A stretch of DNA of 59,400 nt, from assembly GCA_026982555.1 (NCBI GenBank), contig JALSGT010000097.1, forward strand, positions 1 to 59,400, in the 5' to 3' direction. Each line of letters begins with the position of its first letter. Positions within the stretch are counted from its first letter, which is position 1. Shown here in pieces: positions 22,350 to 45,936 of the stretch. The notes beneath the pieces are model-generated. The model did no database searches, was not told the DNA's origin, and saw only the letters and a list, made by a program, of their open reading frames with translations. The stretch comes from Chromatiales bacterium. Lineage in GTDB: Bacteria; Pseudomonadota; Gammaproteobacteria; SZUA-152. The position numbers and the translations under genes are program-made.

Positions 22350-25079
22350 TCAGGGCCGGGTAAAAACAAGCGGGGTAAAACTTGTCGTCATTTCCAGGTT
22401 TCGTACGGTCACTGAACCGTCATCATTCGCGGAGACGGTTCCCGATTTTCCGTTATAACTCCAGTTGATGGCTTCCCCTGGCAACAGCTGGAATTGCTGA
22501 ATACGACGTATTGTCACATCTGCGGTAACGGGAAGCTGCCCATAATAATAATTTCCTTTTGGTGGGTAACCCGGGGCAGGCGGGGTGCCTGTTGTGTCGA
22601 TGTCTACCTTGACCGGCATGCTTAGCTGGTTGCGTGTATCGATGATATTTGTGCTGTCCCAGCGCAGGTAACGATTAATTGCGCCTCGCAAGGTGCCTGT
22701 ATATCCTCCCGCGCCATCGGGCTCTCCAGCGTCATCATCGGCTGAGCCGTTGGAAAAAGCAGGGAATGCCAGGCCTCTCCTCAGAAAGGACGTTGCATCC
22801 AGCGCCAGCTCCTTCCACCAGTCTGCGCTAAGCGGGCTATCTTGACCGGTGTGAGCCCGTTGATCCCAGGCAACAAGGTGCCCAATCTCTTCTTGTTGCA
22901 GTGCCGACAGGAAAGAGATGCCCGTAACCGGGCTCTCCCGTACCATCGCGTCAAAGCTGATAACAGGATCATTTTTCCCGCTTATTGTACTAAAGTGGAG
23001 ATTGCGGAAGTCTTTATTGCTAAGAGCGGCGCGACTGGCATCATACAAATCCCAAACATTGGTTCCTTTGTCGTCACCTGGCAGTCCAAGTTCTTTTGAA
23101 CCCCAGTAAGAAGTAAGCCCAGTCTGATGTCCGGGACTTAAAAAATGAGGCGTGGTACCACCAATACGAGGAAGGATCTCTGTAAAGTGGCGGCCGTAGT
23201 TGATTGCCAGGAAAAGCGCACCGGTGCCTCCCATGGACTGACCAGAGACCAGAACCTGATCCGGGTCAGCACCCGGGCAAGATCCCACTTCAGCAGGCAA
23301 GCCCGGACAGCCTTCCAGCAGGTAAGAGAGCAGGTGCATGACTCTGCGCTGGGTATAATTGGGATTGCTGCCGCTGGTTCTATCGCCACCAGGGAGCCAC
23401 TCATTGTATCCTGTCCACCATGTATTATTGGCATCATGAGGCGCAATACCGAAATAGCCTTCCCTTCCCACTGTGCCGGGGCTGCCACCAAAACCATGCA
23501 GACCAATCCGCACGGGCAGCATGTTAGTCGCACTCGCTTTCGTAGGGATGGCCAGGTTTGCTGTGAATTCACGCCCTTTATAACCGGGACTGTCCAGAAA
23601 ATCATCGGTGACTTGCGTCATTTCCAACTTGGTTACCCTGTATAAATCTTTCGAGCTGACAAATGTAGGCCAGGGTGGCTGGATGGTATTGTTGACCGTT
23701 ACTGTGAACATCTGGGTCTCACTGTCTTCACCGTCTACGGCCTCCATTGTTATTTGCCACGACTTTCCTCCCTGGATAAAATCCGGGCGAAAATCGAAAC
23801 GGCGCTCGACTTCGTTCCAGTGCATTCCGGGTGGCATGCCGCTGACAAAGATTCGCGCACTTGGTCGAGCGATGATGTCAATGGTGTAATCCTGTTCCTC
23901 GTCGAAAGATTGTGGACCGGGGTTGGACAGCAATACTGTCGAATCGGTATCGTCGTTGGTGATGGTTGCCACGCCGACAGCATTGAGCAGGCTGGCATTA
24001 GCGGGATTGGATAATGCCAGTCTGAACGTTTCATTGAGTTCTGCAATGGTGTCACCAACCACATTTACGGCAACAGTTTTGCTGGTTTCTCCGGAAGCAA
24101 AGGACAGGATACCGCTTTTACTCTGATAATCACCCGGTGAGGTCGCGGTAATGTCGCTGGTTTCGTAATTGACGGTAACGGTATCGACGCTGCTGGCGGA
24201 CAGGGTAACAGTGAACATTGCCGCTGTAGTCCCTGAATCACCTTCAGTGATGCTGATGTCTCCAATTTGCAGTGTCGGGAGAGTGCCGACATTATCGTCA
24301 TTGACAATGGTTGCCCAGGCAACAGCATTGCTGCTGTTCAGGTCAGCATTGCCGGGATTTGACAGGGTCAGTTTGAATTTTTCATCAGGTTCCGGAATGG
24401 CATCACCAACCACTTCTACCGTAACCGTCTTGCTGGTTTCTCCGGGTGCAAAGGACAAGGTGCCGTTTTTACTCTGATAATCAGCGGGTTCGGTCGCGGT
24501 ATCGTTACTGGTTGTGTAATCGACAGTAACAGTATCGGTGCTGCTGGCAGATAGAGTGATGTTAAACATTGCTGCCGTAGTACCTGAGTCGCCTTCAGTG
24601 ATGCTGATGTTTCCGATTTGCAGTGTCGGTGTGTCGTCATCGACAATGGTTGCCCAGGCAACCGCATTGTTGCTTGGGTCGTCGGGGTCGGATAAGGTCA
24701 GTTTGAATTTTTCATCCGGTTCCGGAGTGGTATCACCCACCACATTAACTGTTACTGTCTTCTCTGTTTCTCCGGGTGCAAAGGATAAAGTGCCGCTTTT
24801 ACTCTGATAATCAGCGGGTTCGGTCGCGGTATCGTTACTGGTTTCGTAATTGACGGTAATGGTCTCGGTAACGGGGGTAGACAGGACAATGTTGAATGTT
24901 GCCGCTGTAGTACCCGAATTACCCTCGGTAACCCGAATATTGGAGAACTCGAATGTTGGTGTTGTATCGTCATTGTCATTGCCCTTGTCCGAGGCGGAAC
25001 CGCCACATGCGCTGAGGATGGCACTGAATATGAGAATGGTACAAAATTTACCCATCAGGTTTTGATTGACTGATTTCAT
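22350..25079 (-). CDS. Lipoprotein with three Calx-beta domains, an Ig-like domain and a C-terminal alpha/beta-hydrolase-like domain
   Basis: Lipobox LSAC; three ITEG.SGTTAA.F...TV.Y.TS...DY...GTLSFAPGET.KTV.V.VVGD...E.DE.F.L.LS repeats; GLHGFGG and nucleophile elbow GQSMGG. Confidence 0.82.
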   Translation of the reverse strand: MKSVNQNLMGKFCTILIFSAILSACGGSASDKGNDNDDTTPTFEFSNIRVTEGNSGTTAATFNIVLSTPVTETITVNYETSNDTATEPADYQSKSGTLSFAPGETEKTVTVNVVGDTTPEPDEKFKLTLSDPDDPSNNAVAWATIVDDDTPTLQIGNISITEGDSGTTAAMFNITLSASSTDTVTVDYTTSNDTATEPADYQSKNGTLSFAPGETSKTVTVEVVGDAIPEPDEKFKLTLSNPGNADLNSSNAVAWATIVNDDNVGTLPTLQIGDISITEGDSGTTAAMFTVTLSASSVDTVTVNYETSDITATSPGDYQSKSGILSFASGETSKTVAVNVVGDTIAELNETFRLALSNPANASLLNAVGVATITNDDTDSTVLLSNPGPQSFDEEQDYTIDIIARPSARIFVSGMPPGMHWNEVERRFDFRPDFIQGGKSWQITMEAVDGEDSETQMFTVTVNNTIQPPWPTFVSSKDLYRVTKLEMTQVTDDFLDSPGYKGREFTANLAIPTKASATNMLPVRIGLHGFGGSPGTVGREGYFGIAPHDANNTWWTGYNEWLPGGDRTSGSNPNYTQRRVMHLLSYLLEGCPGLPAEVGSCPGADPDQVLVSGQSMGGTGALFLAINYGRHFTEILPRIGGTTPHFLSPGHQTGLTSYWGSKELGLPGDDKGTNVWDLYDASRAALSNKDFRNLHFSTISGKNDPVISFDAMVRESPVTGISFLSALQQEEIGHLVAWDQRAHTGQDSPLSADWWKELALDATSFLRRGLAFPAFSNGSADDDAGEPDGAGGYTGTLRGAINRYLRWDSTNIIDTRNQLSMPVKVDIDTTGTPPAPGYPPKGNYYYGQLPVTADVTIRRIQQFQLLPGEAINWSYNGKSGTVSANDDGSVTVRNLEMTTSFTPLVFTRP

Positions 25080-25490: not shown

Positions 25491-28400
25491 TTGGCAAGCA
25501 TGAATCCTTTCAAATATAAGCCCCTTTTTACTATGACCATATTTAATATGACTAAATATTTTTTACCCGCATGGGCCATCCTTGGCATTTTAGCAGGTTT
25601 GAGTCTGTCTGAAGCAGCATCTGCGGCACAACATCAGGCCCGGTTTGCTGAAATTGATTACGATGTGGTGTATGTGCGTTGCCCGAGGGGCAAAGAACCG
25701 GTTTTGCGCCCCACCTCTGGAGCTACCCCACAGCAATTACTGAATTGGAACGGCGTTAATGACCTGTGGCTGTCGGCCAACAACAACGTTTATCACCAGC
25801 CTGGTTGTGATCTGGTTTTGCATGACTCCAGCATGACTCCTGGTGATCCTGCCGCAGAGACAGTGCTGGTTGACTGCAACGAAGATGACACCTCAAACCC
25901 TGTGTGCTCGGTGGTGGACCCCAATGTCTCCTTTGATGGGCGTTATGTGGTGTACACCAAGTTTATTGATACCCGCACCTTTGTGACTGGTCTGGGTATT
26001 CGGCAGCTGGGTGGTATAGGCAGGCAGAGCTTTATGAAGCTTGATCCTGAAGGAAAGCTTGGCTCCAACAGGAACTATTTTGCCGTTATGGATCATGTTA
26101 ATTTTAAGCCTTATGACGCGCCGGCATTGATTTTTATGTATGACCTGCTCACGGGCGAAAATGTACAGGTGTCGCCCGACAGCAAAATATTTGCTGGCCG
26201 TGCGCACCCGGGCAAGGACGAAGAGTGGAGCTCCAATATTCCAGTGATGGATACCGGCCCGTTTTTTATGCCCAATGGCCGCATTGGCTTTACCAGTAAC
26301 CGTGAGCAGGGTTTTGGTATGTTCCAGCTGTTTACGATGGATCGTGATGGAAGAAACATGGAAGTCCTGAGCCATCGCGCCATGGCAAACCAATTGCACC
26401 CCTTCACCCTGATGGATGGACGCATTGTTTACACCAACTTTGATCGCATGCTGCAACGTGTGACCAATAATAATTTCTCTTTATTCGAAATCAACCCCGA
26501 TGGTTCCGCGCCGTTTATTTTTGCGGGCAAAAATGATCCCACAAAATGGTCGTATCATTACACGACCCAGTTGTCGGATGGCGACATCGTTACCACCTTG
26601 TATTACAACCATCAGCAGACCGGGCTGGGTGCATTTGAGCGTTTTCCGGTGAATCCGCCGGGGCCGGATTTTGTACACCGTACAATTTCCACCGGTGTAG
26701 CAGGTGATGTGCTCAATACGCTGCCGGATACCTGGAAAACAGGCAACCAGCTGTTACCGTTCGCCCGCCCCGGGCAGTTTCGTCTGACACCGCAGGCGGG
26801 TGCCGGTGACACTCAAATGCCTCGTTACAAAAACAGCGCGGATTATTTTGTACACCCGGTGGATGGTCGTACTGTTGTTATGAGCGGTCGTTTCACCCAT
26901 CCTGCTGCGGCACCCGATAATGATTTGCTGGCCACTTACGCAATAGGTGGTGCCTCTACTATCGGCAGTTCTGTATTTCGGGACACGACGCTGGAGGCGG
27001 TCAAGGAAGTCATTGGCAAGGATGCGGGTATCTGGCTGCTGCCGCTGGAGCCCAACAGTACCCGCCAGATAGGGCACATTGCCGATGATGCCCGGATCGT
27101 GGTGGATTTCCCCCAGTATCACGAAATTATGCCGCGTGCGGTGGTGCGTTATCAGGATATCTATGGCATTCCACGTCCTGACCCTGATGGTGAGCGACCA
27201 CCAACCCGCAATAATGGCGATCAGGATCCGCGTCTGCCTGCTGGCGCGCCCTATGGTCTTACCGGTGCCGCTTCTCTGTACGACCGGGAAACCCGCTCAC
27301 TTAATGGTACCCCCTGGAACATGAAGGATGGTGGTGGTGCCATGTCGGGACGTACCTACATGAATTTGGCGGTCAGTGGTGCCGAACTGGCTATTTTTGA
27401 TAACGATGAAATCTACGGTGTTCGTGTTCTTATCCCTGTGCCCAATATTCCCAAAGAGGCTTACAGGAGCGAGGAAAAGTGGTCTGGTTTCCAGCAACAT
27501 CATTTGCGTATTCTTGGCGAATACCCGGTGCGCAAACCCGGCACGGAAGGGTTGGAGCCCGATGATGCTCAAGGCAACCCGGATACCAGTTTCATCGTAA
27601 GGGTACCGGCTGATACGCCTTTTCTGATGCAGACCATTGACAAACGTGGCATGGCACTGGACATCGAAACCACATCGCGTTCGGTCACGCGTGGTGAGGA
27701 GCAGTTTTGCTCGGGCTGTCATGTCCATACCCGCGAAGGTATGGATACCCTGGATTCACTGGCCAGGAGCAATACCAGCGAATTTGGTGACTTCACTGGT
27801 ATCAGTGCCCCGTTGTTTGTGGGGGAAGACAAGGGTTATCCGGTTGTTGCCAGTGCTCAGGATACTTATTCCGGAGAGGCGGGAGCCACGGCTCGACGCT
27901 CCTTTGCTGCGGACTGGGACAACAACATTGCGGCGATTGTGCAGAATCGTTGCGCGTCTTGTCATGCAGAAGGTGAGTCGGCTCAGCAGCTCACAGGTCT
28001 ACGTTTGGATGGCAGTAACCGGACCTATGAGTTGCTTATCAAGAACAAATACACTCGTGAAGATGGCACTGTCATCGGTGCTGGTTTCAAGCCAGGCAAT
28101 GGTCTCACCGATCTCGATGAGCCGGGAACTGATCGCATTACACCGCACTACCAGTGTTGTACGCCTTCACGATGGGTTTCCGTCAACAGCGCGCGTTCCA
28201 GCATGCTGGTGTGGGCACTCTACGGTGAGCGCCTGGATGGTCGTGACCCTCTTACGGGCTTGCCACCCGCTGGCAGCGGTGTGTTGGTGGACAATGGGAG
28301 TCCCAGGCGTGATTACCCCGAGATATGGCCCAAGGTAAGTGAACACCTGGCTTATGTTTCCGGCATGCCTGAGGCGGAAAAACGCCTGATTGCGCGCTGG

Positions 28401-29024
28401 CTGGATATAGGAGCACCCAAGCTTAATGTACATGATGACATGATGCGCCCGGTGATGACCCTTACACCTGTGGGTGGTGCCTCCAGCGTGGACAGTATTT
28501 TGGTCGGGTTGTGGGATGATTCTCCACTGGATTTTGCCCGATTCAAAGTGGTAATGGCCAATGGTGACGATATTACGCCTCAGGTGACAGGTGCGCCGGA
28601 TGTTATCAGCATACCTTTGCCCGACACAGTGACCGAAAGCAATGCTGATGATGTCACAATCACGCTGGAAATCTGGGATAAGCCCAATCGAAGCTGGAGC
28701 AGAGTGCGTCCTGGCGAAGCTGCTGCCAACCGTACTCGCAAAACTGTGACAGGGCGTGCATTGTTGCGCATGGCAGGTAGTTCCACAGGTGGCGGCTCAA
28801 CAGGCGGAGGCTCGACTGGTGGCGGCTCAACAGGAGGAGGTTCAACAGGAGGAGGCTCAACAGGAGGAGGCTCAACAGGCGGAGGTTCAACAGGAGGAGG
28901 CTCAACTGATGAAGGTTCCAGTGGAGGCGGCGGTAGTCACAGCCCGCTGGGATTGTTGCTGTTGGCTGCCCTGTGGCCTGTATTACGACGCCGAAACAAG
29001 GCAGGCAGTGTTCTCGTAAGGTGA
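25491..29024 (+). CDS. Secreted HzsA-related (hydrazine synthase alpha-like) beta-propeller protein with two c-type heme motifs, (GGGST)8 stalk and GlyGly-CTERM-like anchor
   Basis: Signal peptide (likely start MTKYF at about 25548); TolB-like DPNVSFDGRYVVY and DGRIVY repeats; SFIVRVPADTPFLMQTIDKRGMA followed by CSGCH; second CASCH; C-terminus GGGGS-hydrophobic-RRR. Confidence 0.75.
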   Translation: MASMNPFKYKPLFTMTIFNMTKYFLPAWAILGILAGLSLSEAASAAQHQARFAEIDYDVVYVRCPRGKEPVLRPTSGATPQQLLNWNGVNDLWLSANNNVYHQPGCDLVLHDSSMTPGDPAAETVLVDCNEDDTSNPVCSVVDPNVSFDGRYVVYTKFIDTRTFVTGLGIRQLGGIGRQSFMKLDPEGKLGSNRNYFAVMDHVNFKPYDAPALIFMYDLLTGENVQVSPDSKIFAGRAHPGKDEEWSSNIPVMDTGPFFMPNGRIGFTSNREQGFGMFQLFTMDRDGRNMEVLSHRAMANQLHPFTLMDGRIVYTNFDRMLQRVTNNNFSLFEINPDGSAPFIFAGKNDPTKWSYHYTTQLSDGDIVTTLYYNHQQTGLGAFERFPVNPPGPDFVHRTISTGVAGDVLNTLPDTWKTGNQLLPFARPGQFRLTPQAGAGDTQMPRYKNSADYFVHPVDGRTVVMSGRFTHPAAAPDNDLLATYAIGGASTIGSSVFRDTTLEAVKEVIGKDAGIWLLPLEPNSTRQIGHIADDARIVVDFPQYHEIMPRAVVRYQDIYGIPRPDPDGERPPTRNNGDQDPRLPAGAPYGLTGAASLYDRETRSLNGTPWNMKDGGGAMSGRTYMNLAVSGAELAIFDNDEIYGVRVLIPVPNIPKEAYRSEEKWSGFQQHHLRILGEYPVRKPGTEGLEPDDAQGNPDTSFIVRVPADTPFLMQTIDKRGMALDIETTSRSVTRGEEQFCSGCHVHTREGMDTLDSLARSNTSEFGDFTGISAPLFVGEDKGYPVVASAQDTYSGEAGATARRSFAADWDNNIAAIVQNRCASCHAEGESAQQLTGLRLDGSNRTYELLIKNKYTREDGTVIGAGFKPGNGLTDLDEPGTDRITPHYQCCTPSRWVSVNSARSSMLVWALYGERLDGRDPLTGLPPAGSGVLVDNGSPRRDYPEIWPKVSEHLAYVSGMPEAEKRLIARWLDIGAPKLNVHDDMMRPVMTLTPVGGASSVDSILVGLWDDSPLDFARFKVVMANGDDITPQVTGAPDVISIPLPDTVTESNADDVTITLEIWDKPNRSWSRVRPGEAAANRTRKTVTGRALLRMAGSSTGGGSTGGGSTGGGSTGGGSTGGGSTGGGSTGGGSTGGGSTDEGSSGGGGSHSPLGLLLLAALWPVLRRRNKAGSVLVR
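28788..28907 (+). repeat. 15-bp coding tandem repeat, 8 x GGGST
   Basis: GGNGGNGGYTCRACN units counted by hand. Confidence 0.95.
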
Positions 29025-29232: not shown

Positions 29233-29829
29233 ATGAAATCACGTCGAATGACGTTGGCTGTGTTGTTGAGTTTCTCTTTCATTTTGTTCCCCATTGTACA
29301 GGCTGCCGAACTGGCGTTGCCGTCCGGTGATCTGATTGCCCCGGCCATTGAACACACACCCATCGAAAAAGATATTTACGCGGGTCAGCAGGTTGATATA
29401 AAAGCCACCGTTACCGACAACGTGGGTGTCAAAAGCGTTATCCTGTTTTATCGTGACAGCAATGCAACCGAATTCAAGCGCCTGAAAATGAATCGTGATC
29501 TGGATTCATTTGTTTACACAACCCAACTCACCGCCACCGCCTCACCCGGCCTGGACTATTACATACAGGCAACAGATCTGGCCGGAAACACACTGTTATT
29601 TGGTTATTCATTTTCACCGTTGACCATTGCCGTGACCCCGGCAGCAGTGGATAACATGGCTGCAACGGACAATACCAATGCAAAGGAAAAATCCGGCATC
29701 AGCAAATGGGTGTGGATCGGCCTGGGTGTGGTCGCTGCTGGTGCAGCGTTATCCGGTGGTGGTGGCGGTGGAAATGATCCAGAACCACCGCCCACAGGCA
29801 CTTTGAGCATTTCAGGGCCGACACCCTAA
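29233..29829 (+). CDS. Exported protein with an Ig-like domain and a C-terminal hydrophobic helix followed by a Gly/Pro tail
   Basis: Signal peptide ending VQA; ATVTDNVGV..V.L.YR and YYIQATD.AGN Ig-like strands; KWVWIGLGVVAAGAA-GGGGGG. Confidence 0.75.
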   Translation: MKSRRMTLAVLLSFSFILFPIVQAAELALPSGDLIAPAIEHTPIEKDIYAGQQVDIKATVTDNVGVKSVILFYRDSNATEFKRLKMNRDLDSFVYTTQLTATASPGLDYYIQATDLAGNTLLFGYSFSPLTIAVTPAAVDNMAATDNTNAKEKSGISKWVWIGLGVVAAGAALSGGGGGGNDPEPPPTGTLSISGPTP

Positions 29830-32421: not shown

Positions 32422-33861
32422 TTGGCACATTACACCGGAATGGGTTTGCTCGTGAAAATGCGGATATTCAGTGCAGATTGTTTTAAAGGGGATGGAGCGA
32501 GGAGCCTCTGGCTGTTATTTGTCATGCTGGTGTTACTCTTCCCATGGTGTGGAGCGCAGGCACAGACTTTTTCTGCCGACCCTGCAACCTATCGCTCAAT
32601 GCTGGGCCTGCTTAAACCAGGGGACATACTTTCGTTACGTTCCGGCACCTACGAAGACGGGTTATCAATTACCCGTCTGCATGGACGAGTTGGCGAGCCT
32701 ATTATTATCACCGGGCCCGAGGAAGGATTTCCTGCCATTTTTCTCGGCAGTCACAATAAATCCAGAAATACCATACAAATCAAAGATTCGAGTTATGTCA
32801 CCATTCGCAACCTGAAACTGGATGGTATGGGGATAGCAGATATTGACGCCGTCAATGCGCGTGGCATCACCCATCACATTACTATCGAAAACCTCAAGAT
32901 TCTTCGCCATGGCGGAAGCCAGTTAACGGTAGGCATTGCCACGCGCGGCCCTGCCTGGAACTGGATTATCCGCAAAAATCTGATTGTTGGTGCCGGTACT
33001 GGAATGTATCTGGGTAATTCCAATGGTGCGGCCCCGTTTGTGGCAGGGTTGATCGAGGGTAATGTGGTGTTACACACACTGGGTTATAACCTGCAAATCA
33101 AACACCAGAAGCCACGCCCCCAAGGCGTTGAGTTTCCGAAAGGGCAAAATACAACCATTATTCGTCATAATGTGTTCAGCAAGGCTGAAAATGCAGCCAT
33201 GGATGACCGCTGGGCTCGCCCCAATGTTTTGTTGGGACATTGGCCTCTGCGAGGAGAAGGGCAGGATGATCAATACCTTGTGTATGGCAATTTTTTCTAC
33301 CAGAACCCCAGTGAAGCCTTGTTCCAAGGTGAAGGGCACATCGCTTTTTATAATAATCTGATGGTCAATGATGTTGGCTCGGCGTTAAACATACAGAAAC
33401 ACAACGATAAACCCCGGCGAATTGATATTTTCCAAAATACCATTGTGGCGCGTAATACCGGCATCAGTGTGCGTCACGGTGTTACTGATTATATGCAACG
33501 GGTAGTTGCAAACGCAGTGTTTGCGTCTACGCCGTTACGACTGACTTCCTCGGTGCAAAAACAGAATAATTTTGCTGGAACCTATCGTTCGGCTTCATCG
33601 TTGTTAGGGAGTCCGCGGGATGAGCCGGGGGAACTGGATCTTTTTCCCGCATCTGCAAAGTTGAAAGGCTCTCTGATTGACATGTCGCCATTTAGGCGCT
33701 TCGAGGATTGGGAACGGGATTTTGACGGTGTTCCGCGTTCCGGCATGTATCGTGGTGCTTATGAAGGGGGACGCGACGGTGCCGCATGGTTTCCCGAGCT
33801 TGCGCAGAAGCCGCTGCTTCCAGACGCGCCTGTTAAGCAAGGACGGATCAAAGATCGCTAA
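32422..33861 (+). CDS. Secreted right-handed beta-helix protein (pectate lyase/chondroitinase B-like fold)
   Basis: Signal peptide ending AQA (true start probably 32452 or 32458); LKPGDILSLRSGTY, IIITGP, YVTIRNLKLD and repeated I..N strands. Confidence 0.75.
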   Translation: MAHYTGMGLLVKMRIFSADCFKGDGARSLWLLFVMLVLLFPWCGAQAQTFSADPATYRSMLGLLKPGDILSLRSGTYEDGLSITRLHGRVGEPIIITGPEEGFPAIFLGSHNKSRNTIQIKDSSYVTIRNLKLDGMGIADIDAVNARGITHHITIENLKILRHGGSQLTVGIATRGPAWNWIIRKNLIVGAGTGMYLGNSNGAAPFVAGLIEGNVVLHTLGYNLQIKHQKPRPQGVEFPKGQNTTIIRHNVFSKAENAAMDDRWARPNVLLGHWPLRGEGQDDQYLVYGNFFYQNPSEALFQGEGHIAFYNNLMVNDVGSALNIQKHNDKPRRIDIFQNTIVARNTGISVRHGVTDYMQRVVANAVFASTPLRLTSSVQKQNNFAGTYRSASSLLGSPRDEPGELDLFPASAKLKGSLIDMSPFRRFEDWERDFDGVPRSGMYRGAYEGGRDGAAWFPELAQKPLLPDAPVKQGRIKDR

Positions 33862-34047: not shown

Positions 34048-36852
34048 TTGGATGCGACATACACATGGTTTGTTATTTTTGCTTCGCCAGCTAACAAAAT
34101 TTTGAGGTTCTTATCGATGACATTTTTTTCATTGAGCTTATGCTCACGGACATATCAAGTGAAAGCCAAAAGTATTGTGAGGCTTTTTGGTAAAACACTC
34201 AGGGCTGCATTGCTGGTAAATATATTTTTAGCGGGCAGCATGACAGCGGCTATTGCCCATGAACAACATCCGAATATTCTGATAAATGCGCAGGAAATTG
34301 CCGCAATCAAAGCCAAAATCAGTATCACGGAAAATAACGGCGTGGTCACGGTTGCGGGCGAAGAACCCTGGAAAAGTGCAGCACGAAAAATGATAGAACA
34401 GGCCGATGCCGCATTAGGCCTTAAACCTGTGAGTGTAACATTTGGTGGTAGCAACAGTTGCGGCGGCAGTCGCGTTTTTTGCACAGGCGCATTCTATAAC
34501 GGTGCAGCGGATCGATATGACTGGGAAAAGGCCGCCAAGCCACTGGGGATAGGTGTGCGCGACCTGGGAATGGCGTATGCGTTTACCGGGAATAGTCGAT
34601 ATGCCGAAAAGCTCATTGAGCTGGTGCGTGTCTGGGCGCTTGATCCGGTAACCGGTATGTTGCCGCGATTCAGCAACAACCAGTCGCTTATGGATCTTTT
34701 TGGGACGATGACCGGGGTGATCTATGGTGTTGACTTAGCCTGGAATTATCCTGGTTGGGAGCAGACCGACAAGGATGCATTTAAAGCGTGGGTGCAAACC
34801 TTTGGTAATAACGCCGTCTATGCCTTTGGTCAGTCGGAGACGAATGCGGCACCTAATAACTTTGAAAACTGGCGGAATGCCTTTCTAAGTATCGCCGGTG
34901 CGTTTTTGGGTGACCAGAGACTTTTGGATATCGCATATCGGAATTTTCGCAATGCAATTCCCAAGCAGGTTCACTGGACTGGTCGCCTGGGGCAGGAAAG
35001 TGGTCGCACCAATGGTTGGGCCGGTCTTGGGTATTCAATATATGCAATCCACGCGATGACATTGACAGCGGAAGTTGCCCGTCACCATGGCGTGGATCTT
35101 TACAACTACCTGGGTGAGGACTCCGGCGGGAAACCCATAGGCTTAAAAACCGCACTGGATTTTCATGTGCCTTATGTGATGAACCCAGCTTCGTGGAAAT
35201 GGGGCAAAAACCCTGATTACCCATTGCTCAATAATATTAATGCGAACAGTGGCGTTGGTATTTATGAAGTGGCTTATTCAATGTGGCAGGATCCCGCCTA
35301 CCTGGGTGTAGTGAACCGATGGGGGCGTCCAATGAAAATGAACATGTGGGCGTTGGGTGTTGTGACGCTGACACATGCTTACCGGGGGCAGGATTCAGCG
35401 CTCGTTACGCCAAGCATTGTGGCGCAGCCGGTTTCTGTAACGGTGACTGAAGGTGAAGATGCCCGTTTTAGTGTGGTTGCAGTAGGGAGTGGCCCGCTGA
35501 GTTATCAGTGGTATCGCAACAATGGCAACGACCCTATTACAGGTGCTACCAATAGCAGTTATACGGTGATCGGCGTCAAGGCTCCAGACGATGAGACTAC
35601 CTATCGCTGCCAGGTCACCAACAGCGAGGGAAGTATTTATAGCAGTGATGCAGAGTTGTTTGTGTCGGTGGATTCCACTGCGCCAACGCTGACCTCAGCA
35701 ATGGCGCTTAGCGATACTCGTGTCGATGTTCGGTTCAGTGAAGCAGTGAATATCGCCGATGCTGAAGATCGCACTAATTATCAGATTAGCCTCGGTATTG
35801 CTGTGACCGCAGCCAGCCTGAGCGACGACGGTCTCGTGGTGAGTCTCACCGTCAGTCAACTGGCCACCGATACCTTTTATACTCTCTCGGTCAGTGATAT
35901 ACGAGATCGAGCAAAAACCCCTAACACCATTGCGTCATTGAGCAGCAAAGATTTCACCTATCGCATCGCTGATGGTTTCGAAGATGGTACTGCCGATGGT
36001 TGGACCCCTTCCGATGCAAGCCGTTGGACGGTGGAGATGGATAAAGGCAGCATGGCGTATTACCTCGCGACGAGTTCCGGCAGCCCCGGTGGTGGCCGGT
36101 TGGGTGAATATTCCTTGCTCCCTGGGGAGTATGGCGATTTTACCATCATGCTACGAGCCAGGCTGAGTGACGATGTGGCTGCCAATGCGACGGCTGATTA
36201 CGCTGTGGTGTTCGGGTTCCAGGGTTCTGACAGTAGCCACCCCCAGGATTCTGACAGTTACTACTACATGTTATTTAACAATAACCCGGATTATAATCAA
36301 CTGTTCAAAGTTGTTGATGGCAATCGTACGTTGTTAGCGACGGCTGACAGTGGCGACTGGTTGAATGATAACGCGTACCACAGTATTAAAATTAATCGTA
36401 CGGGAAGTACCATCAGCGTATATTTTGACGACACCCTTATTTTGAAAACCGACGACAGCAGCCTGGGTGCAGGCCGGGTCGGTGTCGGCAGCTATAACGA
36501 TTCTGCGTATTTTGATGACGTAAGTGTAACGGGTGCAATATCCGGTGGTAGTTCCAGTGGTGGCGGTTCAACCGGCGGAGGCTCGACTGGTGGAGGTTCA
36601 ACCGGCGGAGGCTCAACCGGCGGAGGCTCAACAGGAGGAGGCTCAACCGGCGGAGGCTCAACAGGAGGAGGCTCAACAGGAGGAGGCTCAACAGGAGGAG
36701 GTTCAACGGGTGGAGGCTCTGTAAATGGTGATACATCCGATACTGAAGGCGGTGGTGCCTTTAACCCCTTCTTTGCTGGTCTCGTGCTGTTACTGATGGG
36801 TATTCGAGGGTTACGTCGAAGGATAACTTCCATGGCGTCAACGCAGGCTTAA
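34048..36852 (+). CDS. Alginate-lyase-family (alpha/alpha toroid) protein with Ig and Ig-like domains, a lectin-like beta-sandwich, (GGGST)10 stalk and GlyGly-CTERM-like anchor
   Basis: LGMAYAFTG...YAEK....VRVWALDP..GM.P, NNFENW, G...QES.R and YSIYA...M...AE motifs; PSIVAQP..LSYQWY Ig domain; GRVGVGSYNDSAYFDDV; EGGGAF-hydrophobic-RRR tail. Real start is probably downstream of 34048. Confidence 0.78.
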   Translation: MDATYTWFVIFASPANKILRFLSMTFFSLSLCSRTYQVKAKSIVRLFGKTLRAALLVNIFLAGSMTAAIAHEQHPNILINAQEIAAIKAKISITENNGVVTVAGEEPWKSAARKMIEQADAALGLKPVSVTFGGSNSCGGSRVFCTGAFYNGAADRYDWEKAAKPLGIGVRDLGMAYAFTGNSRYAEKLIELVRVWALDPVTGMLPRFSNNQSLMDLFGTMTGVIYGVDLAWNYPGWEQTDKDAFKAWVQTFGNNAVYAFGQSETNAAPNNFENWRNAFLSIAGAFLGDQRLLDIAYRNFRNAIPKQVHWTGRLGQESGRTNGWAGLGYSIYAIHAMTLTAEVARHHGVDLYNYLGEDSGGKPIGLKTALDFHVPYVMNPASWKWGKNPDYPLLNNINANSGVGIYEVAYSMWQDPAYLGVVNRWGRPMKMNMWALGVVTLTHAYRGQDSALVTPSIVAQPVSVTVTEGEDARFSVVAVGSGPLSYQWYRNNGNDPITGATNSSYTVIGVKAPDDETTYRCQVTNSEGSIYSSDAELFVSVDSTAPTLTSAMALSDTRVDVRFSEAVNIADAEDRTNYQISLGIAVTAASLSDDGLVVSLTVSQLATDTFYTLSVSDIRDRAKTPNTIASLSSKDFTYRIADGFEDGTADGWTPSDASRWTVEMDKGSMAYYLATSSGSPGGGRLGEYSLLPGEYGDFTIMLRARLSDDVAANATADYAVVFGFQGSDSSHPQDSDSYYYMLFNNNPDYNQLFKVVDGNRTLLATADSGDWLNDNAYHSIKINRTGSTISVYFDDTLILKTDDSSLGAGRVGVGSYNDSAYFDDVSVTGAISGGSSSGGGSTGGGSTGGGSTGGGSTGGGSTGGGSTGGGSTGGGSTGGGSTGGGSTGGGSVNGDTSDTEGGGAFNPFFAGLVLLLMGIRGLRRRITSMASTQA
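35971..36720 (+). repeat. Copy 1 of a near-identical cassette of about 630 bp plus (GGGST)10 repeat
   Basis: Colinear with 38918-39543 at a constant offset of 2947; GGGST array at 36559-36720. Confidence 0.95.
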
Positions 36853-36923: not shown

Positions 36924-37051
36924 GGTTGCTGCCTTGCGCTCAATCACACTCGTTTCGTATGTTCGGTAGCCTTAATGCTGTAGCTGATTTTATGTGCATT
37001 AATGGTTTTGAATAAAGCCCTGAAAATATATTTTCCTTCGAAGGCAGGTAA

Positions 37052-39916
37052 ATGAAGATGAACACAGGCACGCACACGCTCTTAGCAATAGAGTCAGGAG
37101 AACGGATAATGATGACACGATTGAGAGCGTTTGGATTGAGTTTATTGTTGATGACGGCTCCTGCGCTCGGATTTGCCAGTGTTTTGAGTGATCTTGCTGT
37201 GAAAGTCCGGCCGGGTACTTTTGTTGAGCTTAAAATTAATGGCGATATATCAACATGTCAGGCGATGGTGCCATCTTTGCCTGAGAGGCATCCCGATGCA
37301 TGCAAGAAAGACGAATCGTTTAGCAATCCCGAACATTGTCTTGTGCCACAGACTCCGTGGAAAGATCTTGGGAATATTCTCGAATTTACCGATGAGGCTT
37401 CGTGGGATCCAGTAGATCGCGAGATTTACATCATGGGTACGCGGAGGCCGTATAAGCGATGGGATCAAGGGTTTGCCAAATATTCTGAAGAGACAAACAG
37501 CTGGACGATCCTGGATCTTCCGCCGTTTGGTGTCGGAGCCCATGGTTATGATAATGGTGCTATCGATGTTGTTGGCAGAAGATACTATTGGTCACGGATA
37601 TCAGCTGCTTACATTGTGTGGTCAATGAACCTGGATACGGGGGAATGGCAAAGACTGCCTGATGCCCCCATCGATACGGGTGAATTTAGCGCCATCGATT
37701 TCTTTCCGGAACTTAACAAACTGGTTTTTTTCGATGGACATTTTGGAGCCAGACCTGGTTCATACGGGTCTGAATATGCGCTGTATGATCCAGATACGAA
37801 CACATGGGAGGCATCCACTGCTTTGGATGGTCCCACTGCCGTGACCCAGGCACCTTTCGGTGCGATTTCTCACTTTAGTGAATACAATCCAAGTCACGGC
37901 GTGATGTTTTTCGGTGGAGGATATCACTATACCAACGGCGGTCAACTTCAAGAGCCAACACCGGAAATCGATGAGTCACGACGACTTTACATGCTCGATA
38001 AGGACAGGGTAGTGACCCGGTTAGCGGATGCCCCAACCAAACTTGGGCAGCATGGTGAGGGTCCACTGCAAACCATTGACCCCAACAGTGGTAATCTCGT
38101 CGTATTTCAGGGGCGACTGAACGACGGTTCTTGTCCCAGTGGCCCGTTGCCGATCTGGGAGTACGATCTCGATCAAGGAGTATGGAATAAAACGGGTGAG
38201 CATAATATTTCGAATTTGTACTGCGGCATGGATTCAGTTGTAGTGCCACTTTACGAATATGGGGTTAACTTCATTGTTTCTGTCCGGAATAACTCAAATT
38301 GCAATGTGTATTTATATCGACATTCAGCCATGGAGCCAGCGCCTCCCGGTATCATCACTCAGCCTGCTTCGCAAAGCATTGAAGAGGGCTCAGCAGTCAC
38401 ATTCAGTGTGGCCGCCAATGGCAGCGGTCCTCTGGAGTATCAGTGGTACCGTAAGGGTAAGGATGAATCAGATGGTAAGTTAATTGCTGGAGCGAACAGC
38501 GCCAGTTTTACAATAGAGCCAGTAACGGTAGTTGATCATGAAGCAAGATATCGCAGCACGGTCACTAACCGTCTGGGGAATGCGGTGAGTGATTACGCGA
38601 CATTACGTGTTGTCCGGGATGAGGCTGCACCAACACTGGCTTCAGCAATGGCGCTTAGCGACACCCGCGTCAATATTCTGTTCAGTGAAACTGTCAATGC
38701 TGACAGCGCTGAAAACAATGCCAATTATGAAATTGACTCTGGTATTGCCGTGACATCTGCCACCTTGAGTGGGGATGGCCGTACTGTCAGTCTGGTAGTC
38801 AGTCAGCTCACGGAGGATATGGTCTATACGGTGCAGGTCAGCAATGTACAAGATTTGGCAGAAACTCCCAACACTATTATCGCTCAGAGCAGTCAGACTT
38901 TTACCTATCGCACGGCAGATGGTTTCGAAGATGGTACTGCCGATGGTTGGACCCCTTCCGATGCAAGCCGTTGGACGGTGGAGATGGACGAAGGCGATAT
39001 GGCGTATTACCTCGCGACGAGTGCCGGCAGCCCCGGTGGTGGCCGGTTGGGTGAATATTCCTTGCTTCCTGGGAGGTATGGCGATTTTACCATCATGCTG
39101 CAAGCCAGGCTGAGTGACGATGTGGCTGCCAATGCGACGGCTGATTACGCTGTGGTGTTCGGGTTCCAGGGTTCTGACAGTAGCCATCCCCAGGATTCTG
39201 ACAGTTACTACTACATGTTATTTAACAATAACCCGGATTATAATCAACTGTTCAAAGTTGTTGATGGCAATCGTACGTTGTTAGCGACGGCTGACAGTGG
39301 CGACTGGTTGAATGATAACGCGTACCACAGTATTAAAATTAATCGTACGGGAAGTACCATCAGCGTATATTTTGACGGCACCCTTATTTTGAGAACCGAC
39401 GACAGCAGCCTGGGTGCAGGCCGGGTCGGTGTCGGCAGCTATAACGATTCTGCGTATTTTGATGACGTAAGTGTAACGGGCGCAATATCCGGTGGTAGCT
39501 CCAGTGGTGGCGGTTCAACCGGCGGAGGCTCGACTGGTGGAGGCTCGACAGGAGGAGGCTCAACAGGAGGAGGCTCAACAGGAGGAGGCTCAACAGGAGG
39601 AGGCTCAACAGGAGGAGGCTCAACAGGAGGAGGCTCAACAGGAGGAGGTTCAACAGGAGGAGGTTCAACAGGAGGAGGTTCAACAGGAGGAGGTTCAACA
39701 GGAGGAGGTTCAACAGGAGGAGGTTCAACAGGAGGAGGCTCAACAGGGGGAGGTTCAACAGGAGGAGGTTCAACAGGAGGTGACGAACCCGGTGCGGGTG
39801 GTGGTGGCGCACTTAGCTTCTTTACGAGCCTTGCATTGCTTCTGATGAGTGCCTGGACTTTGCGCCGAAGAGTACATCTGTGTTGTCAGCAGAGTTCGGA
39901 TGCTGATGTTGTTTAG
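37052..39916 (+). CDS. Secreted Kelch-like beta-propeller protein with Ig and Ig-like domains, a lectin-like beta-sandwich, (GGGST)18 stalk and GlyGly-CTERM-like anchor
   Basis: Signal peptide (likely start MMTRL at about 37109); Y.....N.W, W.RLPDAP, YDPDTNTW and FFGGG Kelch-like blades; same C-terminal architecture as 34048-36852; GGGGAL-hydrophobic-RRR. Confidence 0.78.
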   Translation: MKMNTGTHTLLAIESGERIMMTRLRAFGLSLLLMTAPALGFASVLSDLAVKVRPGTFVELKINGDISTCQAMVPSLPERHPDACKKDESFSNPEHCLVPQTPWKDLGNILEFTDEASWDPVDREIYIMGTRRPYKRWDQGFAKYSEETNSWTILDLPPFGVGAHGYDNGAIDVVGRRYYWSRISAAYIVWSMNLDTGEWQRLPDAPIDTGEFSAIDFFPELNKLVFFDGHFGARPGSYGSEYALYDPDTNTWEASTALDGPTAVTQAPFGAISHFSEYNPSHGVMFFGGGYHYTNGGQLQEPTPEIDESRRLYMLDKDRVVTRLADAPTKLGQHGEGPLQTIDPNSGNLVVFQGRLNDGSCPSGPLPIWEYDLDQGVWNKTGEHNISNLYCGMDSVVVPLYEYGVNFIVSVRNNSNCNVYLYRHSAMEPAPPGIITQPASQSIEEGSAVTFSVAANGSGPLEYQWYRKGKDESDGKLIAGANSASFTIEPVTVVDHEARYRSTVTNRLGNAVSDYATLRVVRDEAAPTLASAMALSDTRVNILFSETVNADSAENNANYEIDSGIAVTSATLSGDGRTVSLVVSQLTEDMVYTVQVSNVQDLAETPNTIIAQSSQTFTYRTADGFEDGTADGWTPSDASRWTVEMDEGDMAYYLATSAGSPGGGRLGEYSLLPGRYGDFTIMLQARLSDDVAANATADYAVVFGFQGSDSSHPQDSDSYYYMLFNNNPDYNQLFKVVDGNRTLLATADSGDWLNDNAYHSIKINRTGSTISVYFDGTLILRTDDSSLGAGRVGVGSYNDSAYFDDVSVTGAISGGSSSGGGSTGGGSTGGGSTGGGSTGGGSTGGGSTGGGSTGGGSTGGGSTGGGSTGGGSTGGGSTGGGSTGGGSTGGGSTGGGSTGGGSTGGGSTGGDEPGAGGGGALSFFTSLALLLMSAWTLRRRVHLCCQQSSDADVV
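38918..39781 (+). repeat. Copy 2 of the near-identical cassette plus (GGGST)18 repeat
   Basis: Matches 35971 onward; GGGST array at 39506-39775 = 18 x 15 nt. Confidence 0.95.
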
Positions 39917-45935: not shown

Positions 45936-45936
45936 C

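What the first reader, a model, noticed from the sequence alone, without database searches (positions are those of the whole stretch)
22350..39916. 18-kb island of seven exported or surface proteins, a candidate uncharacterised cell-surface glycan-processing system
Seen: seven consecutive genes, all with export signals. They are two lipoproteins, three (GGGST)n plus GlyGly-CTERM-like proteins, one C-terminally anchored protein and one soluble beta-helix protein. Their heads are an alpha/beta-hydrolase, a di-heme HzsA-like propeller, an alginate-lyase-like toroid, a pectate-lyase-like beta-helix and two other propellers. No TonB receptor, sugar transporter or cytoplasmic catabolic gene is present. 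Known: GlyGly-CTERM proteins are processed by rhombosortase and surface-displayed via type II secretion in Gammaproteobacteria. Inference: a surface-tethered toolkit for remodelling own EPS or biofilm or a host glycan, possibly coupling a heme redox enzyme with lyases, rather than a classical uptake PUL.
Basis: partly seen in the sequence, partly recalled or inferred. Interest (0 to 1): 0.75.

Follow-up and report, generated by a model that had tools for sequence, protein, structure and literature searches.

The report
Surface-displayed slime-processing enzyme island
A vent bacterium carries seven neighbouring genes for exported or cell-anchored enzyme-like proteins that most likely trim or remodel the cell's own slime coat, and one of them is an unusual two-haem relative of the anammox hydrazine synthase.

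Summary
Seven consecutive ORFs (22350-39916) all start with export signals. Three of them end in (GGGST)8/10/18 plus a Gly-rich/TM/RRR tail.

The genome has a rhombosortase (156 bits, cut-off 84) next to gspG. The three tails score below the TIGR03501 cut-off and are longer than canonical tails. A genome-specific tail model built without them still ranks them first among the ORF tails it was not built from (apart from a near-copy of one seed).

New here: in other genera of the same family, homologues of G2, G5 and G6 sit together in shuffled combinations. They are sometimes fused to Kelch domains, and several lie inside exosortase-A (XrtA/PEP-CTERM) EPS loci. In Nitrosospira the G5 family lies near homologues of the window's upstream genes. 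This supports the reading "remodels its own EPS".

Caveats: G6 and all 10 lineage homologues carry Phe at the catalytic His of PL38. The island is patchy within the genus. No RNA data exist. The role of the haem protein is unknown.

Verdict: a new variant of known kinds, of moderate interest.

The parts
19735..20694 (+). U3: 319-aa cytoplasmic protein, polysaccharide-deacetylase-like (a lead only). It flanks the island, and its homologues accompany G5/G2 homologues elsewhere.
   Evidence: No Pfam or NCBIfam hit. Atlas feature score 0.98 to clusters auto-named polysaccharide deacetylase (the first hit may be its own cluster). Homologues of 55-59% identity lie 4-9 kb from G5 homologues in 14 of 80 loci, and next to G2-like or G5-like genes in L082 and L089.
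20691..21638 (+). U2: FemAB-type GNAT (Acetyltransf_6)
   Evidence: PF13480 70 bits. Homologues travel with U3 in the Nitrosospira-type loci.
21654..22232 (+). U1: small GNAT acetyltransferase
   Evidence: PF00583 47.8 bits.
22350..25079 (-). G1: lipoprotein with 3x Calx-beta, a middle domain and an alpha/beta-hydrolase (esterase-like) domain. Divergent from G2.
   Evidence: Calx-beta 197 bits; Esterase 22.3-23.4 bits. PDB LC-Est1C E 1.4e-5. Lipobox and GQSMGG read. Homologues sit next to G2, G5 or G6 homologues in L002, L009, L085 and L096.
25491..29024 (+). G2: signal peptide, propeller, HzsA-like middle and C-terminal di-haem c domains, (GGGST)8, tail
   Evidence: PF18582 37 bits. The family profile hits only HzsA 5c2v_A in the PDB (E 7.9e-21), with both CXXCH motifs aligned. 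CXXCH at aa 740 and 821. At least 350 homologues.
28785..28906 (+). 15-nt tandem array encoding (GGGST)8 in G2
   Evidence: TRF 8.1 copies, 85% matches.
28923..29021 (+). G2 C-terminal tail: GGGGS motif, TM, RRR, plus 9 residues
   Evidence: No TIGR03501 hit. MYXO-CTERM 19.8 bits (cut-off 20) but no Cys in the motif. Leave-out tail HMM 17.0 bits, E 2.4e-3.
29233..29829 (+). G3: small exported protein with a TM near the C-terminus followed by a Gly6/Pro-rich end
   Evidence: Read. Big_7 17 bits, weak. A 41% paralogue on C65 also precedes a lipoprotein gene. Missing together with G4 in some strains.
29870..32083 (+). G4: lipoprotein with three about 75-aa beta-sandwich repeats plus an NHL-type beta-propeller
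   Evidence: PQQ_2 and DUF4369 below cut-offs. Atlas structure row TM 0.55 to an NHL/TEN_NHL cluster and feature scores of 0.78 or less (leads only).
32422..33861 (+). G5: secreted right-handed beta-helix, carbohydrate-active-enzyme-like, without a tail here
   Evidence: AF2 pLDDT 87.2. VIA-align top row RbmB 9ozl, Z 29.7, rmsd 2.5 over 295 aa, tied within about 3 Z with AlgE4, PL31, Pel9A and PL6. 147 relatives in genome contigs. 67 invariant columns in 31 sequences. Paralogues and orthologues are fused to the display cassette.
34048..36852 (+). G6: PL38/PL5-like (alpha/alpha) toroid, Ig_3, Big_5, DUF1080 (ConA-like), (GGGST)10, tail
   Evidence: PF05426 140 bits plus Ig_3, Big_5 and 3keto-disac_hyd. 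PDB 8bdq (PL38) E 1e-11. Arg and Tyr are conserved, but the catalytic His is Phe (NNFENW, from about aa 271).
36568..36719 (+). 15-nt tandem array encoding (GGGST)10 in G6
   Evidence: TRF 10.1 copies.
36745..36849 (+). G6 tail: EGGGA motif, TM, RRR, plus 9 residues
   Evidence: TIGR03501 7.7 bits (cut-off 15.5); MprA_tail 11.7; leave-out HMM 12.9 bits, E 0.045.
37052..39916 (+). G7: Kelch-type six-bladed propeller head plus the same Ig_3/Big_5/DUF1080 cassette, (GGGST)18, tail
   Evidence: Pfam. AF2 pLDDT 82.3, pTM 0.87. Foldseek: KLHL Kelch domains at E 1e-10, with AA5 copper oxidases also listed. Only 19 homologues found in the 524-1670 aa length range.
39515..39780 (+). 15-nt tandem array encoding (GGGST)18 in G7
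   Evidence: TRF 17.7 copies, 95% matches.
39797..39913 (+). G7 tail: GGGGA motif, TM, RRR, plus 14 residues
   Evidence: TIGR03501 10.6 bits (cut-off 15.5); leave-out HMM 18.9 bits, E 6e-4.
35678..36719 (+). Shared display cassette (copy in G6); the second copy is at 38625-39666 in G7
   Evidence: blastn: 1045 nt at 88% identity between G6 and G7, although their heads are unrelated. Protein identity 74%.

Best explanation
This is an accessory gene island that supplies the cell envelope with enzymes and binding proteins directed at the organism's own exosortase-A-type exopolysaccharide (EPS).

Proposed mechanism:
1. All seven products cross the inner membrane by Sec (inferred from the leaders).
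2. G1 and G4 become lipoproteins.
3. G5 is released into the periplasm or medium.
4. G2, G6 and G7 are first held in the inner membrane by a C-terminal helix. A Gly-rich motif just outside that helix is cut by the genome's rhombosortase, and the proteins are then taken to the cell surface by the type II secretion system, as shown for VesB of Vibrio cholerae. This step is inferred by analogy and not shown here.
5. A 40-90-residue (GGGST)n stalk and an Ig/Big_5/ConA-like (DUF1080) cassette hold the heads away from the membrane and probably bind glycan.
6. The heads then cut, epimerise, de-esterify or bind the EPS. They are the PL38-like toroid, the beta-helix, the esterase and the Kelch and NHL propellers.
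7. The HzsA-like di-haem protein G2 adds a redox activity of unknown substrate.

Shown here: domain identities, the tail class, the presence of rhombosortase and gspG, and the recurrent neighbourhood with EPS loci. Inferred: localisation, substrate and all enzymatic activities.
For: (1) Domain assignments.

(2) Sorting:
- Rhombosortase TIGR03902 scores 156.2 bits (cut-off 84) at C2:26069-26524. It lies about 130 nt from gspG (TIGR01710, 194 bits, cut-off 88.85), with gspH-K-like ORFs beside it.
- Rhombosortase is above its cut-off in 28 of 32 genomes of the family.
- A tail HMM built from four non-island tails, one of which passes TIGR03501 at 18.5 bits, ranks the three island tails directly after the four seeds and a near-duplicate of one seed (C29), among 9159 ORF tails. 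Their scores are 18.9, 17.0 and 12.9 bits; the best shuffled tail scores 8.8.

(3) The display cassette is modular. G6 and G7 share 1045 nt at 88% identity. The same cassette and tail follow a G5-like beta-helix on C75 and a G6 paralogue on C68, and follow beta-helix heads in L009 and L010.

(4) Recurrent clustering beyond close kin:
- G2+G5-like in G014:C12.
- G2+G6-like in G002:C96, and G017:C90 (about 10 kb apart).
- G5+G6 in G002:C10.
- G1+G2 in G008:C150.
- G1+G6-like in G017:C86.
- Domain fusions: Kelch+beta-helix (the L082 1557-aa ORF) and Kelch+HZS_alpha (P0068).
- Kelch or heparinase-II/III-like genes flank G2-like genes in L084, L088 and L097.

(5) EPS link:
- G2-like genes sit among exosortase-A-system markers that pass their curated cut-offs in L088 (TIGR03098 806 bits, 03099 631, 03100 356, 03101 280) and L089 (TIGR03097 489, 03098 821, 03099 645).
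- The genes upstream of G2 in G002:C96 are 68-84% identical to the own genome's C62 locus, which holds the exosortase (TIGR04178, 72.5 bits) and an O-ligase homologue.
- In Nitrosospira (L071) the G5 homologue lies near U3 and U2 homologues and an XrtA-system amidotransferase (TIGR03108, 867 bits, cut-off 817).
- In 31 of 76 distant loci the G5 homologue is followed, a median of 74 nt downstream, by a VanZ/Wzy_C-type membrane protein.

(6) The top structural row for G5 is RbmB, which the PDB entry title calls the polysaccharide lyase of V. cholerae, solved bound to Vibrio polysaccharide.

(7) Lifestyle: a RuBisCO large-subunit fragment is present and no Eda was found in the 73%-complete genome. 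The DNA-holding runs are vent and mat metagenomes.
Against: - The tails score below the TIGR03501 cut-off (7.7, 10.6, no hit) and have 9, 9 and 14 residues after RRR. Haft and Varghese give 0-5.
- GspD was found only below its cut-off (175 and 171 bits against 351).
- G6 and 10 of 10 lineage homologues have Phe where BoPL38 has the catalytic His243, and the H243N variant of BoPL38 is reported inactive. G6 may therefore bind rather than cleave.
- In this genome the island lies between housekeeping genes, not inside the XrtA locus on C62.
- Within the genus the parts are patchy: G2 in 4 of 13 genomes, G5 in 8 of 13, the G6 head in 5 of 13, the G7 head in 2 of 13. G3-G4 are missing in G003/L002 and in a contig of run X4.
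- The related genomes are kin, so the neighbourhood counts are not independent.
- In most distant lineages G5 has no island partner within 10 kb.
- There is no expression, localisation or activity evidence, and the EPS composition is unknown.
Confidence: 0.5

Rival explanations
1. Non-catalytic matrix or adhesion proteins. The heads are lectin-like binders, with a toroid that has lost its catalytic His and with Kelch and NHL propellers. They tether the cell to its EPS, to mineral surfaces or to neighbouring cells, so the island builds biofilm architecture rather than processing glycan.
For: His243-to-Phe in G6 and in 10 of 10 lineage homologues. The Kelch and NHL folds carry no enzyme signature here. 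There are many Ig, Calx-beta and ConA-like modules. The repeat stalks vary in length, as in adhesins.
Against: Arg292 and Tyr298 equivalents are conserved in G6. G5 has 67 invariant columns across 31 sequences of 46-92% identity, typical of an enzyme. G1 keeps a GxSxG elbow. G2 keeps both haem motifs.
Confidence: 0.2
2. Permanently inner-membrane-anchored periplasmic machinery that modifies the nascent polymer during export. This would be analogous to AlgL, AlgG and AlgX in alginate synthesis. On this reading the tails are plain anchors, not sorting signals.
For: The tails are atypically long on the cytoplasmic side and score below the HMM cut-off. Alginate epimerases AlgE4/AlgE6 are among the tied top structural rows for G5. 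G6 belongs to the Pfam family named Alginate_lyase. AlgI-like MBOAT genes lie near G1/G6-like genes in L096 and in the C62 locus (the MBOAT identity is my reading of the N-terminal sequence, not a tool result).
Against: The tails form one class with a TIGR03501-passing tail. Rhombosortase sits next to gspG. A 40-90-residue flexible stalk plus three spacer domains would overshoot a periplasm. G005 has a tail-less G5 homologue and no rhombosortase hit, but that is a single genome.
Confidence: 0.1
3. Foraging. The proteins are surface enzymes that degrade foreign uronate-rich polysaccharides from the mat (alginate-like or glucuronan-like) for carbon, without a classical PUL.
For: PL38/PL5-like and PL6/PL31-like folds. 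The habitat is a mat or vent community.
Against: No TonB receptor, sugar transporter or uronate catabolic gene lies in or next to the island. No Eda was found, and a RuBisCO fragment is present, in the 73%-complete genome. Homologues lie in EPS biosynthesis loci. The catalytic His is missing in G6.
Confidence: 0.08
4. No common function. A flexible genomic spot has accumulated unrelated exported proteins that share only a mobile display cassette.
For: Presence is patchy within the genus. G3-G4 come and go between strains. G2 and G5 copies are decayed in G008. The island sits at different genomic sites in G000 and G008.
Against: The same families re-associate in different orders, with different paralogues and in fusions, in at least four other genera of the family and in one further family.
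Confidence: 0.12

Closest known systems
GlyGly-CTERM / rhombosortase / T2SS surface display (VesB of Vibrio cholerae; TIGR03501, TIGR03902)
   Same: N-terminal signal peptide, and a C-terminal Gly-rich motif, TM helix and basic cluster. A rhombosortase that passes its curated cut-off is in the genome, next to gspG. Several otherwise unrelated proteins share only the tail (abstract of PMC6219818; passages of PMC3237569).
   Different: The tails are below the HMM cut-off and have 9-14 residues (21 in the passing C28 tail) after the basic cluster instead of 0-5. A long (GGGST)n stalk and an Ig/Big_5/DUF1080 cassette precede the tail. Processing has not been tested.
Matrix-polysaccharide enzymes encoded with their own EPS systems (RbmB/VPS; AlgL and AlgG of alginate)
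   Same: A beta-helix whose top structural row is RbmB (Z 29.7). A toroid in Pfam Alginate_lyase. Homologues are encoded in or beside EPS biosynthesis loci.
   Different: The EPS system is the exosortase-A type, of unknown composition. The enzymes are tethered by a sorting tail. The toroid has Phe at the catalytic His. The statement that RbmB, AlgL and AlgG are encoded within their own EPS operons is recalled, not taken from a call; the PDB entry title for RbmB does say it is a lyase solved bound to Vibrio polysaccharide.
BoPL38 (PDB 8BDQ), PL38 alginate lyase/epimerase; PL5 A1-III
   Same: Best solved relatives of the G6 head (E 1e-11; A1-III E 1e-4). Equivalents of E236, R292 and Y298 are conserved.
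   Different: H243 is Phe in G6 and in all 10 aligned lineage homologues. Identity is low and the protein has extra C-terminal modules.
Hydrazine synthase alpha subunit HzsA (PDB 5C2V) and its non-anammox homologues
   Same: It is the only PDB hit of the G2-family profile. The order is collinear: propeller, middle domain with the first CXXCH, C-terminal domain with the second CXXCH. PF18582 scores above its cut-off.
   Different: The NCBIfam equivalog scores 30 bits against a cut-off of 800. No beta-gamma-like or other CXXCH gene is nearby. The residues after the first CXXCH differ. The protein is fused to a surface tail and sits in an EPS context. PMC12758564 (passages read) reports that non-anammox homologues lack the key residues and have no known function.

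Membership tests
GlyGly-CTERM sorting domain (TIGR03501) | HMM score at or above the curated cut-off (15.5 bits) | tested here: not met
   G6 7.7, G7 10.6, G2 no hit. None of the three was listed in the six-frame genome search at E<=10.
GlyGly-CTERM sorting domain (TIGR03501) | C-terminal tripartite architecture (Gly-rich motif, TM helix, basic cluster), no Cys in the motif, and an N-terminal signal peptide | tested here: met
   Read in the translations. The criteria come from passages of PMC3237569.
GlyGly-CTERM sorting domain (TIGR03501) | Zero to five residues after the basic cluster | tested here: not met
   9, 9 and 14 residues follow RRR. The criterion is quoted.
GlyGly-CTERM sorting domain (TIGR03501) | Rhombosortase (TIGR03902) encoded in the same genome | tested here: met
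   156.2 bits against a cut-off of 84. Above the cut-off in 28 of 32 family genomes.
GlyGly-CTERM sorting domain (TIGR03501) | In-register similarity to a trusted instance in the same genome (the curators' promotion rule) | tested here: inconclusive
   The leave-out HMM, which includes the passing C28 tail, scores the island tails at 18.9, 17.0 and 12.9 bits. They rank next after the seeds and the C29 duplicate among 9159 tails; the best shuffled tail scores 8.8. Homology running upstream of the tail into a trusted instance was not shown.
Polysaccharide lyase PL38/PL5 (Pfam Alginate_lyase PF05426) | Domain match above the gathering score | tested here: met
   140 bits against 22.2.
Polysaccharide lyase PL38/PL5 (Pfam Alginate_lyase PF05426) | Catalytic His (H243 of BoPL38) | tested here: not met
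   It aligns with Phe (NNFENW) in G6 and in 10 of 10 lineage homologues.
Polysaccharide lyase PL38/PL5 (Pfam Alginate_lyase PF05426) | Catalytic Tyr (Y298) and Arg (R292) | tested here: met
   Both are aligned and conserved in 11 of 11 sequences.
Hydrazine synthase alpha subunit (NF052339 equivalog) | Equivalog score of at least 800 bits | tested here: not met
   30.3 bits.
HZS_alpha-domain di-haem proteins (PF18582) | Middle-domain match above the cut-off, with two CXXCH motifs collinear with HzsA | tested here: met
   37 bits against 26.6. The profile-to-5c2v_A alignment spans both motifs.
Hydrazine synthase complex | Adjacent beta/gamma (CCP-like di-haem plus propeller) subunit genes | tested here: not met
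   G2 has two CXXCH and G6/G7 none; none seen reading G1, G3-G5. CXXCH=0 in all ORFs listed next to G2-subfamily genes in L082-L089 and L097.
Beta-helix polysaccharide lyases/epimerases (PL6, PL9, PL31, RbmB, AlgE) | Right-handed parallel beta-helix fold | tested here: met
   Z 24-30 over 270-330 residues to many such enzymes.
Beta-helix polysaccharide lyases/epimerases (PL6, PL9, PL31, RbmB, AlgE) | Family-specific catalytic residues or a Ca site | not tested
   I made no residue-level superposition. The top rows are tied within about 3 Z, so no single family can be named.
Exosortase-A (XrtA/PEP-CTERM) EPS locus | Curated XrtA-system marker genes in the same neighbourhood | tested here: not met
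   None was found in the window. The markers lie on C62 in this genome. The feature is met for G2-like genes in L088 and L089 and for the G5 homologue in L071 and L095.
Polysaccharide utilisation locus | TonB-dependent receptor or SusD, transporter and catabolic genes adjacent | tested here: not met
   None among the ORFs of 9488-47460.
AA5 copper-radical oxidases (galactose-oxidase type Kelch) | Cu ligands and the Tyr-Cys cofactor | not tested
   Only fold-level hits at E about 1e-9 with low TM scores.

The most novel reading that the evidence does not exclude
The G2 subfamily of HzsA-like di-haem cytochromes is a cell-surface redox enzyme that belongs functionally to exosortase-A exopolysaccharide systems. 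It would work with Kelch, beta-helix and His-less PL38-like partners. Two possibilities are an oxidative or redox polysaccharide-modifying module, and an EPS-embedded electron-transfer or metal-oxidising module in vent chemolithoautotrophs. Either would give this orphan branch of the hydrazine-synthase fold its first physiological context.
Probability: 0.15. Interest if true: 0.85.

Novelty: new variant of a known kind. Interest (0 to 1): 0.55.

Why it matters
- It extends rhombosortase-type surface display to a lineage-specific variant tail, and to a reusable stalk-plus-cassette that is swapped between unrelated heads.
- It ties three poorly understood protein families to the widespread but biochemically obscure exosortase-A EPS system. 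The families are HzsA-like di-haem proteins, a conserved beta-helix family with 147 relatives among GTDB species genomes, and a His-less PL38-like toroid.
- It gives concrete candidates for the enzymes that shape biofilm matrix in vent and mat chemolithoautotrophs.
- It gives a testable context for non-anammox HzsA homologues. A 2025 study (PMC12758564, passages read) found no homologue with another experimentally confirmed function among the top hits.

Tried and rejected
- Promoter and terminator scans of 21500-41000 were at chance level (27 sites against 22.0±4.7; 19 against 18.8±4.0), so I make no operon statement.
- No RNA holder was listed for the island, so expression is untested.
- Contig laying gives presence and variants only.
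- phmmer of single G2 against the PDB found only linker-like noise; a family profile was needed.
- phmmer of G5 against the PDB: only chondroitinase B, at E 0.77.
- MYXO-CTERM for the G2 tail (19.8 against 20): rejected because the motif has no Cys.
- The 'invert_tail' match of G3 (14 against 37 bits): rejected.
- PEP-CTERM or exosortase as the sorter of the island tails: an exosortase exists, but the tails have no PEP motif.
- VanZ/Wzy_C partner of G5: not found in the own genome by tblastn at E<=1e-3 (genome 73% complete).
- U3 and U2 gave no NCBIfam hit at 1e-5, so they are not the curated PEP-CTERM-locus deacetylase or FemAB families.
- The generic gammaproteobacterial HZS_alpha family has a different conserved neighbourhood and no EPS link, so the EPS association holds only for the G2 subfamily.
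- The search of earlier findings was not open.
- I made no structure model for G1, G2, G3, G4 or G6, because the two prediction jobs went to G7 and G5.

Full report
**What is there**

The window is contig C97 of a 2.43-Mb, 162-contig, 73%-complete MAG. Its closest public relatives are Gammaproteobacteria MAGs whose record titles point to vent and mat samples, and the DNA-holding runs are labelled hydrothermal vent and microbial mat metagenomes.

Mechanical ORF calling gives seven large consecutive ORFs: G1 on the minus strand and G2-G7 on the plus strand. The flanks are:
- Upstream: dapD, dapE, an aminotransferase, EamA, a glyoxalase and three small genes, U3, U2 and U1.
- Downstream: an AddB-like nuclease, a GT2, MutS, PhoA and a Wadjet JetABC set.

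**The observation**

Every product begins with a leader that I read as a Sec or lipoprotein signal (no predictor was available).

| Gene | Content |
|---|---|
| G1 | 3x Calx-beta plus a weak esterase match with GQSMGG |
| G2 | HZS_alpha and two CXXCH |
| G4 | Repeats plus an NHL-like propeller (Atlas leads only) |
| G5 | A beta-helix |
| G6 | Alginate_lyase 140 bits, then Ig_3, Big_5, DUF1080 |
| G7 | A Kelch-type propeller with the same three C-terminal modules |

The (GGGST) runs are 15-nt tandem arrays of 8, 10 and 18 units. Within the genome they occur only in these three ORFs, 3 of 9304.

**Sorting signal**

- The tails fail the curated model. TIGR03501 gives 7.7 and 10.6 bits and no hit, against a cut-off of 15.5.
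- They carry 9-14 residues after the basic cluster, where the describing paper states 0-5 (passages of PMC3237569).
- The genome does encode a rhombosortase well above its cut-off. It is placed divergently beside gspG (194 bits) and gspH-K-like ORFs.
- Rhombosortase is above its cut-off in 28 of 32 genomes of the family.
- One tail elsewhere in the genome (C28) passes TIGR03501.
- A genome-specific HMM finds eight tails and then a clear gap.
- A model built without the island tails places them next after its seeds and a near-duplicate of one seed (C29), among 9159 ORF tails. A shuffled control scores lower.

I therefore read the tails as a lineage variant of GlyGly-CTERM. Function is inferred by analogy to VesB (abstract of PMC6219818). 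A 2026 paper on the tail acting as an independent targeting motif was seen only in the search listing. GspD was found only below its cut-off.

**A reusable display cassette**

G6 and G7 have unrelated heads but share 1045 nt at 88% identity, covering Big_5/DUF1080 and the start of the repeat. The same cassette and tail follow other heads:
- a G5-like beta-helix on C75 and a G6 paralogue on C68 of this genome;
- beta-helix heads in L009 and L010.

G2 orthologues in relatives carry varied Ig or cadherin modules before the tail.

**The heads**

*G5.* It belongs to a well-conserved family. There are 147 relatives among 225 candidate stretches in the species-genome collection, and 67 invariant columns in 31 aligned sequences. 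Its model matches many beta-helix carbohydrate enzymes at Z 24-30. RbmB is first, and AlgE4, PL31, Pel9A and PL6 lie within about 3 Z, so no single family can be named.

*G6.* Its nearest solved relatives are the PL38 enzyme 8BDQ and PL5 A1-III. Using the residues named in the BoPL38 preprint (passages), the E236, R292 and Y298 equivalents are kept. H243 aligns with Phe in G6 and in all 10 lineage homologues examined. The preprint reports H243N as inactive, so lyase activity is doubtful or mechanistically altered.

*G7.* The head is a Kelch propeller with only 19 homologues in the length range searched. All carry Ig-type modules, and the seven that bear an organism name are Gammaproteobacteria or Xanthomonadales MAGs.

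*G2.* The family is large, with at least 350 hits. Its profile finds only HzsA in the PDB, aligned across both haem motifs. However:
- The NCBIfam equivalog is missed by a wide margin.
- No beta-gamma-like gene is nearby.
- The residues that follow the first CXXCH differ. The significance of the Tyr in HzsA at this point is recalled, not taken from a call.
- PMC12758564 (passages) likewise reports that non-anammox homologues lack the key residues and have no known function.

**Is it a system?**

Close relatives (82-92% identity) share synteny, which proves little. More telling is what happens in other genera of the family and in one further family. The same families re-associate in different orders and with different paralogues:
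- G2+G5-like in G014.
- G2+G6-like in G002:C96 and G017.
- G5+G6 in G002:C10.
- G1+G2 in G008.
- G1+G6-like in G017:C86.

There are also two fusions, Kelch+beta-helix (L082) and Kelch+HZS_alpha (P0068). Kelch or heparinase-II/III-like genes lie next to G2-like genes in L084, L088 and L097.

Several of these loci are exosortase-A EPS loci by curated markers (L088 and L089). G002:C96 continues the orthologue of this genome's own C62 EPS locus directly into G2 and a G6-like gene.

In Nitrosospira-type loci the G5 homologue lies 4-9 kb from homologues of the window's U3 and U2 (14 of 80 loci) and beside an XrtA-system amidotransferase. In 31 of 76 distant loci it is followed by a Wzy_C-type membrane protein.

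The generic gammaproteobacterial HZS_alpha family occurs in 39 of 300 sampled genomes. It has a different, non-EPS neighbourhood, so the EPS link is specific to the G2 subfamily.

**Against a fixed system**

- The parts are patchy within the genus: G2 in 4 of 13 genomes, G5 in 8, G6 in 5, G7 in 2.
- G3-G4 are absent in L002 and in a contig of run X4.
- G008 holds decayed copies.
- In this genome the island is not inside the EPS locus.
- The genomes compared are related, so the counts are not independent.

**Verdict**

The open points are whether G6 is catalytic and what the haem protein does.

It is a new variant of known kinds, namely rhombosortase-type display and EPS-locus enzymes. The HzsA-like/EPS association is the most interesting lead.

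Supplementary files of the cited papers were not consulted. The tables of PMC3237569 (the list of curated tails) and of PMC12758564 (the lists of homologues) might bear on the tail and G2 claims.

Noticed in passing
window 52470-58444: A Wadjet-type set: JetA (PF18982, 103 bits), a DUF4194 protein and an SbcC/Walker-B ATPase of 1223 aa. JetD was not looked for.
   Followed up: no
window 40639-43620 (-) and G000:C62:36811-40230 (-): An AddB-like PD-(D/E)XK nuclease lies right after the island. It also follows G7 in L003 (90% identity). A 1139-aa ORF whose N-terminus reads like a UvrD/AddA-type helicase (my reading) lies on C62 just beyond the EPS locus. The two usually adjacent genes may have been separated by island or EPS DNA.
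   Followed up: no
L098-L104, L106-L110 (12 loci): The generic gammaproteobacterial HZS_alpha proteins (880-980 aa, 2-3 CXXCH) sit in a strongly conserved cluster. It holds two small proteins ending in aromatic 'FF' (outer-membrane-barrel-like), a redoxin-like protein and two long, possibly TPR-like proteins. In 7 of the 12 loci there are also divergent one- and two-CXXCH proteins. This looks like an uncharacterised conserved system. G002 and G016 have both this and the G2 subfamily.
   Followed up: partly
L016, L021, L025, L030 ... L079 (31 of 76 loci): G5 homologues are followed, at a median of 74 nt and mostly on the same strand, by a 700-1280-aa membrane protein. In L071 this protein carries VanZ, weak Rce1-like and weak Wzy_C matches. 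It is a conserved two-gene unit across Nitrosomonadaceae, Gallionellaceae and some Gammaproteobacteria.
   Followed up: partly
window 29198-31810 and 31403-31707: A contig of run X4 joins 29198 to 31810, so G3 and most of G4 are absent. A contig of run X3 lacks 303 nt inside the G4 propeller repeats. These are natural strain variants.
   Followed up: partly
G000:C65:3-1502 (-): A 41% paralogue of G3 is again followed by a lipoprotein gene with Calx-like text. This suggests a recurring small-anchor-protein plus lipoprotein pair.
   Followed up: no
window 20001-22000 and 1-2000: GC drops to 0.415 over U3-U1 and to 0.384 at the contig start, against about 0.50 elsewhere.
   Followed up: no
L085 (G008:C150), L086, L087: In G008 the G2 orthologue is interrupted by a TAG. 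Only fragments of G5 remain, and G6-like pieces carry TGA stops. The module is decaying in one species.
   Followed up: partly
window 44353-47460: Two ORFs without any family hit (300 and 227 aa) precede a GT2 with CelA/PgaC-like partial matches of 63-85 bits, far below the cut-offs. This may be another small glycan-synthesis unit.
   Followed up: no
G005 (same genus, 100% complete): Its G5 homologue has no tail and lies beside an exosortase-A O-ligase homologue (TIGR03097, 357 bits). The genome gave no rhombosortase hit. This is a single case, consistent with tail and rhombosortase going together.
   Followed up: partly
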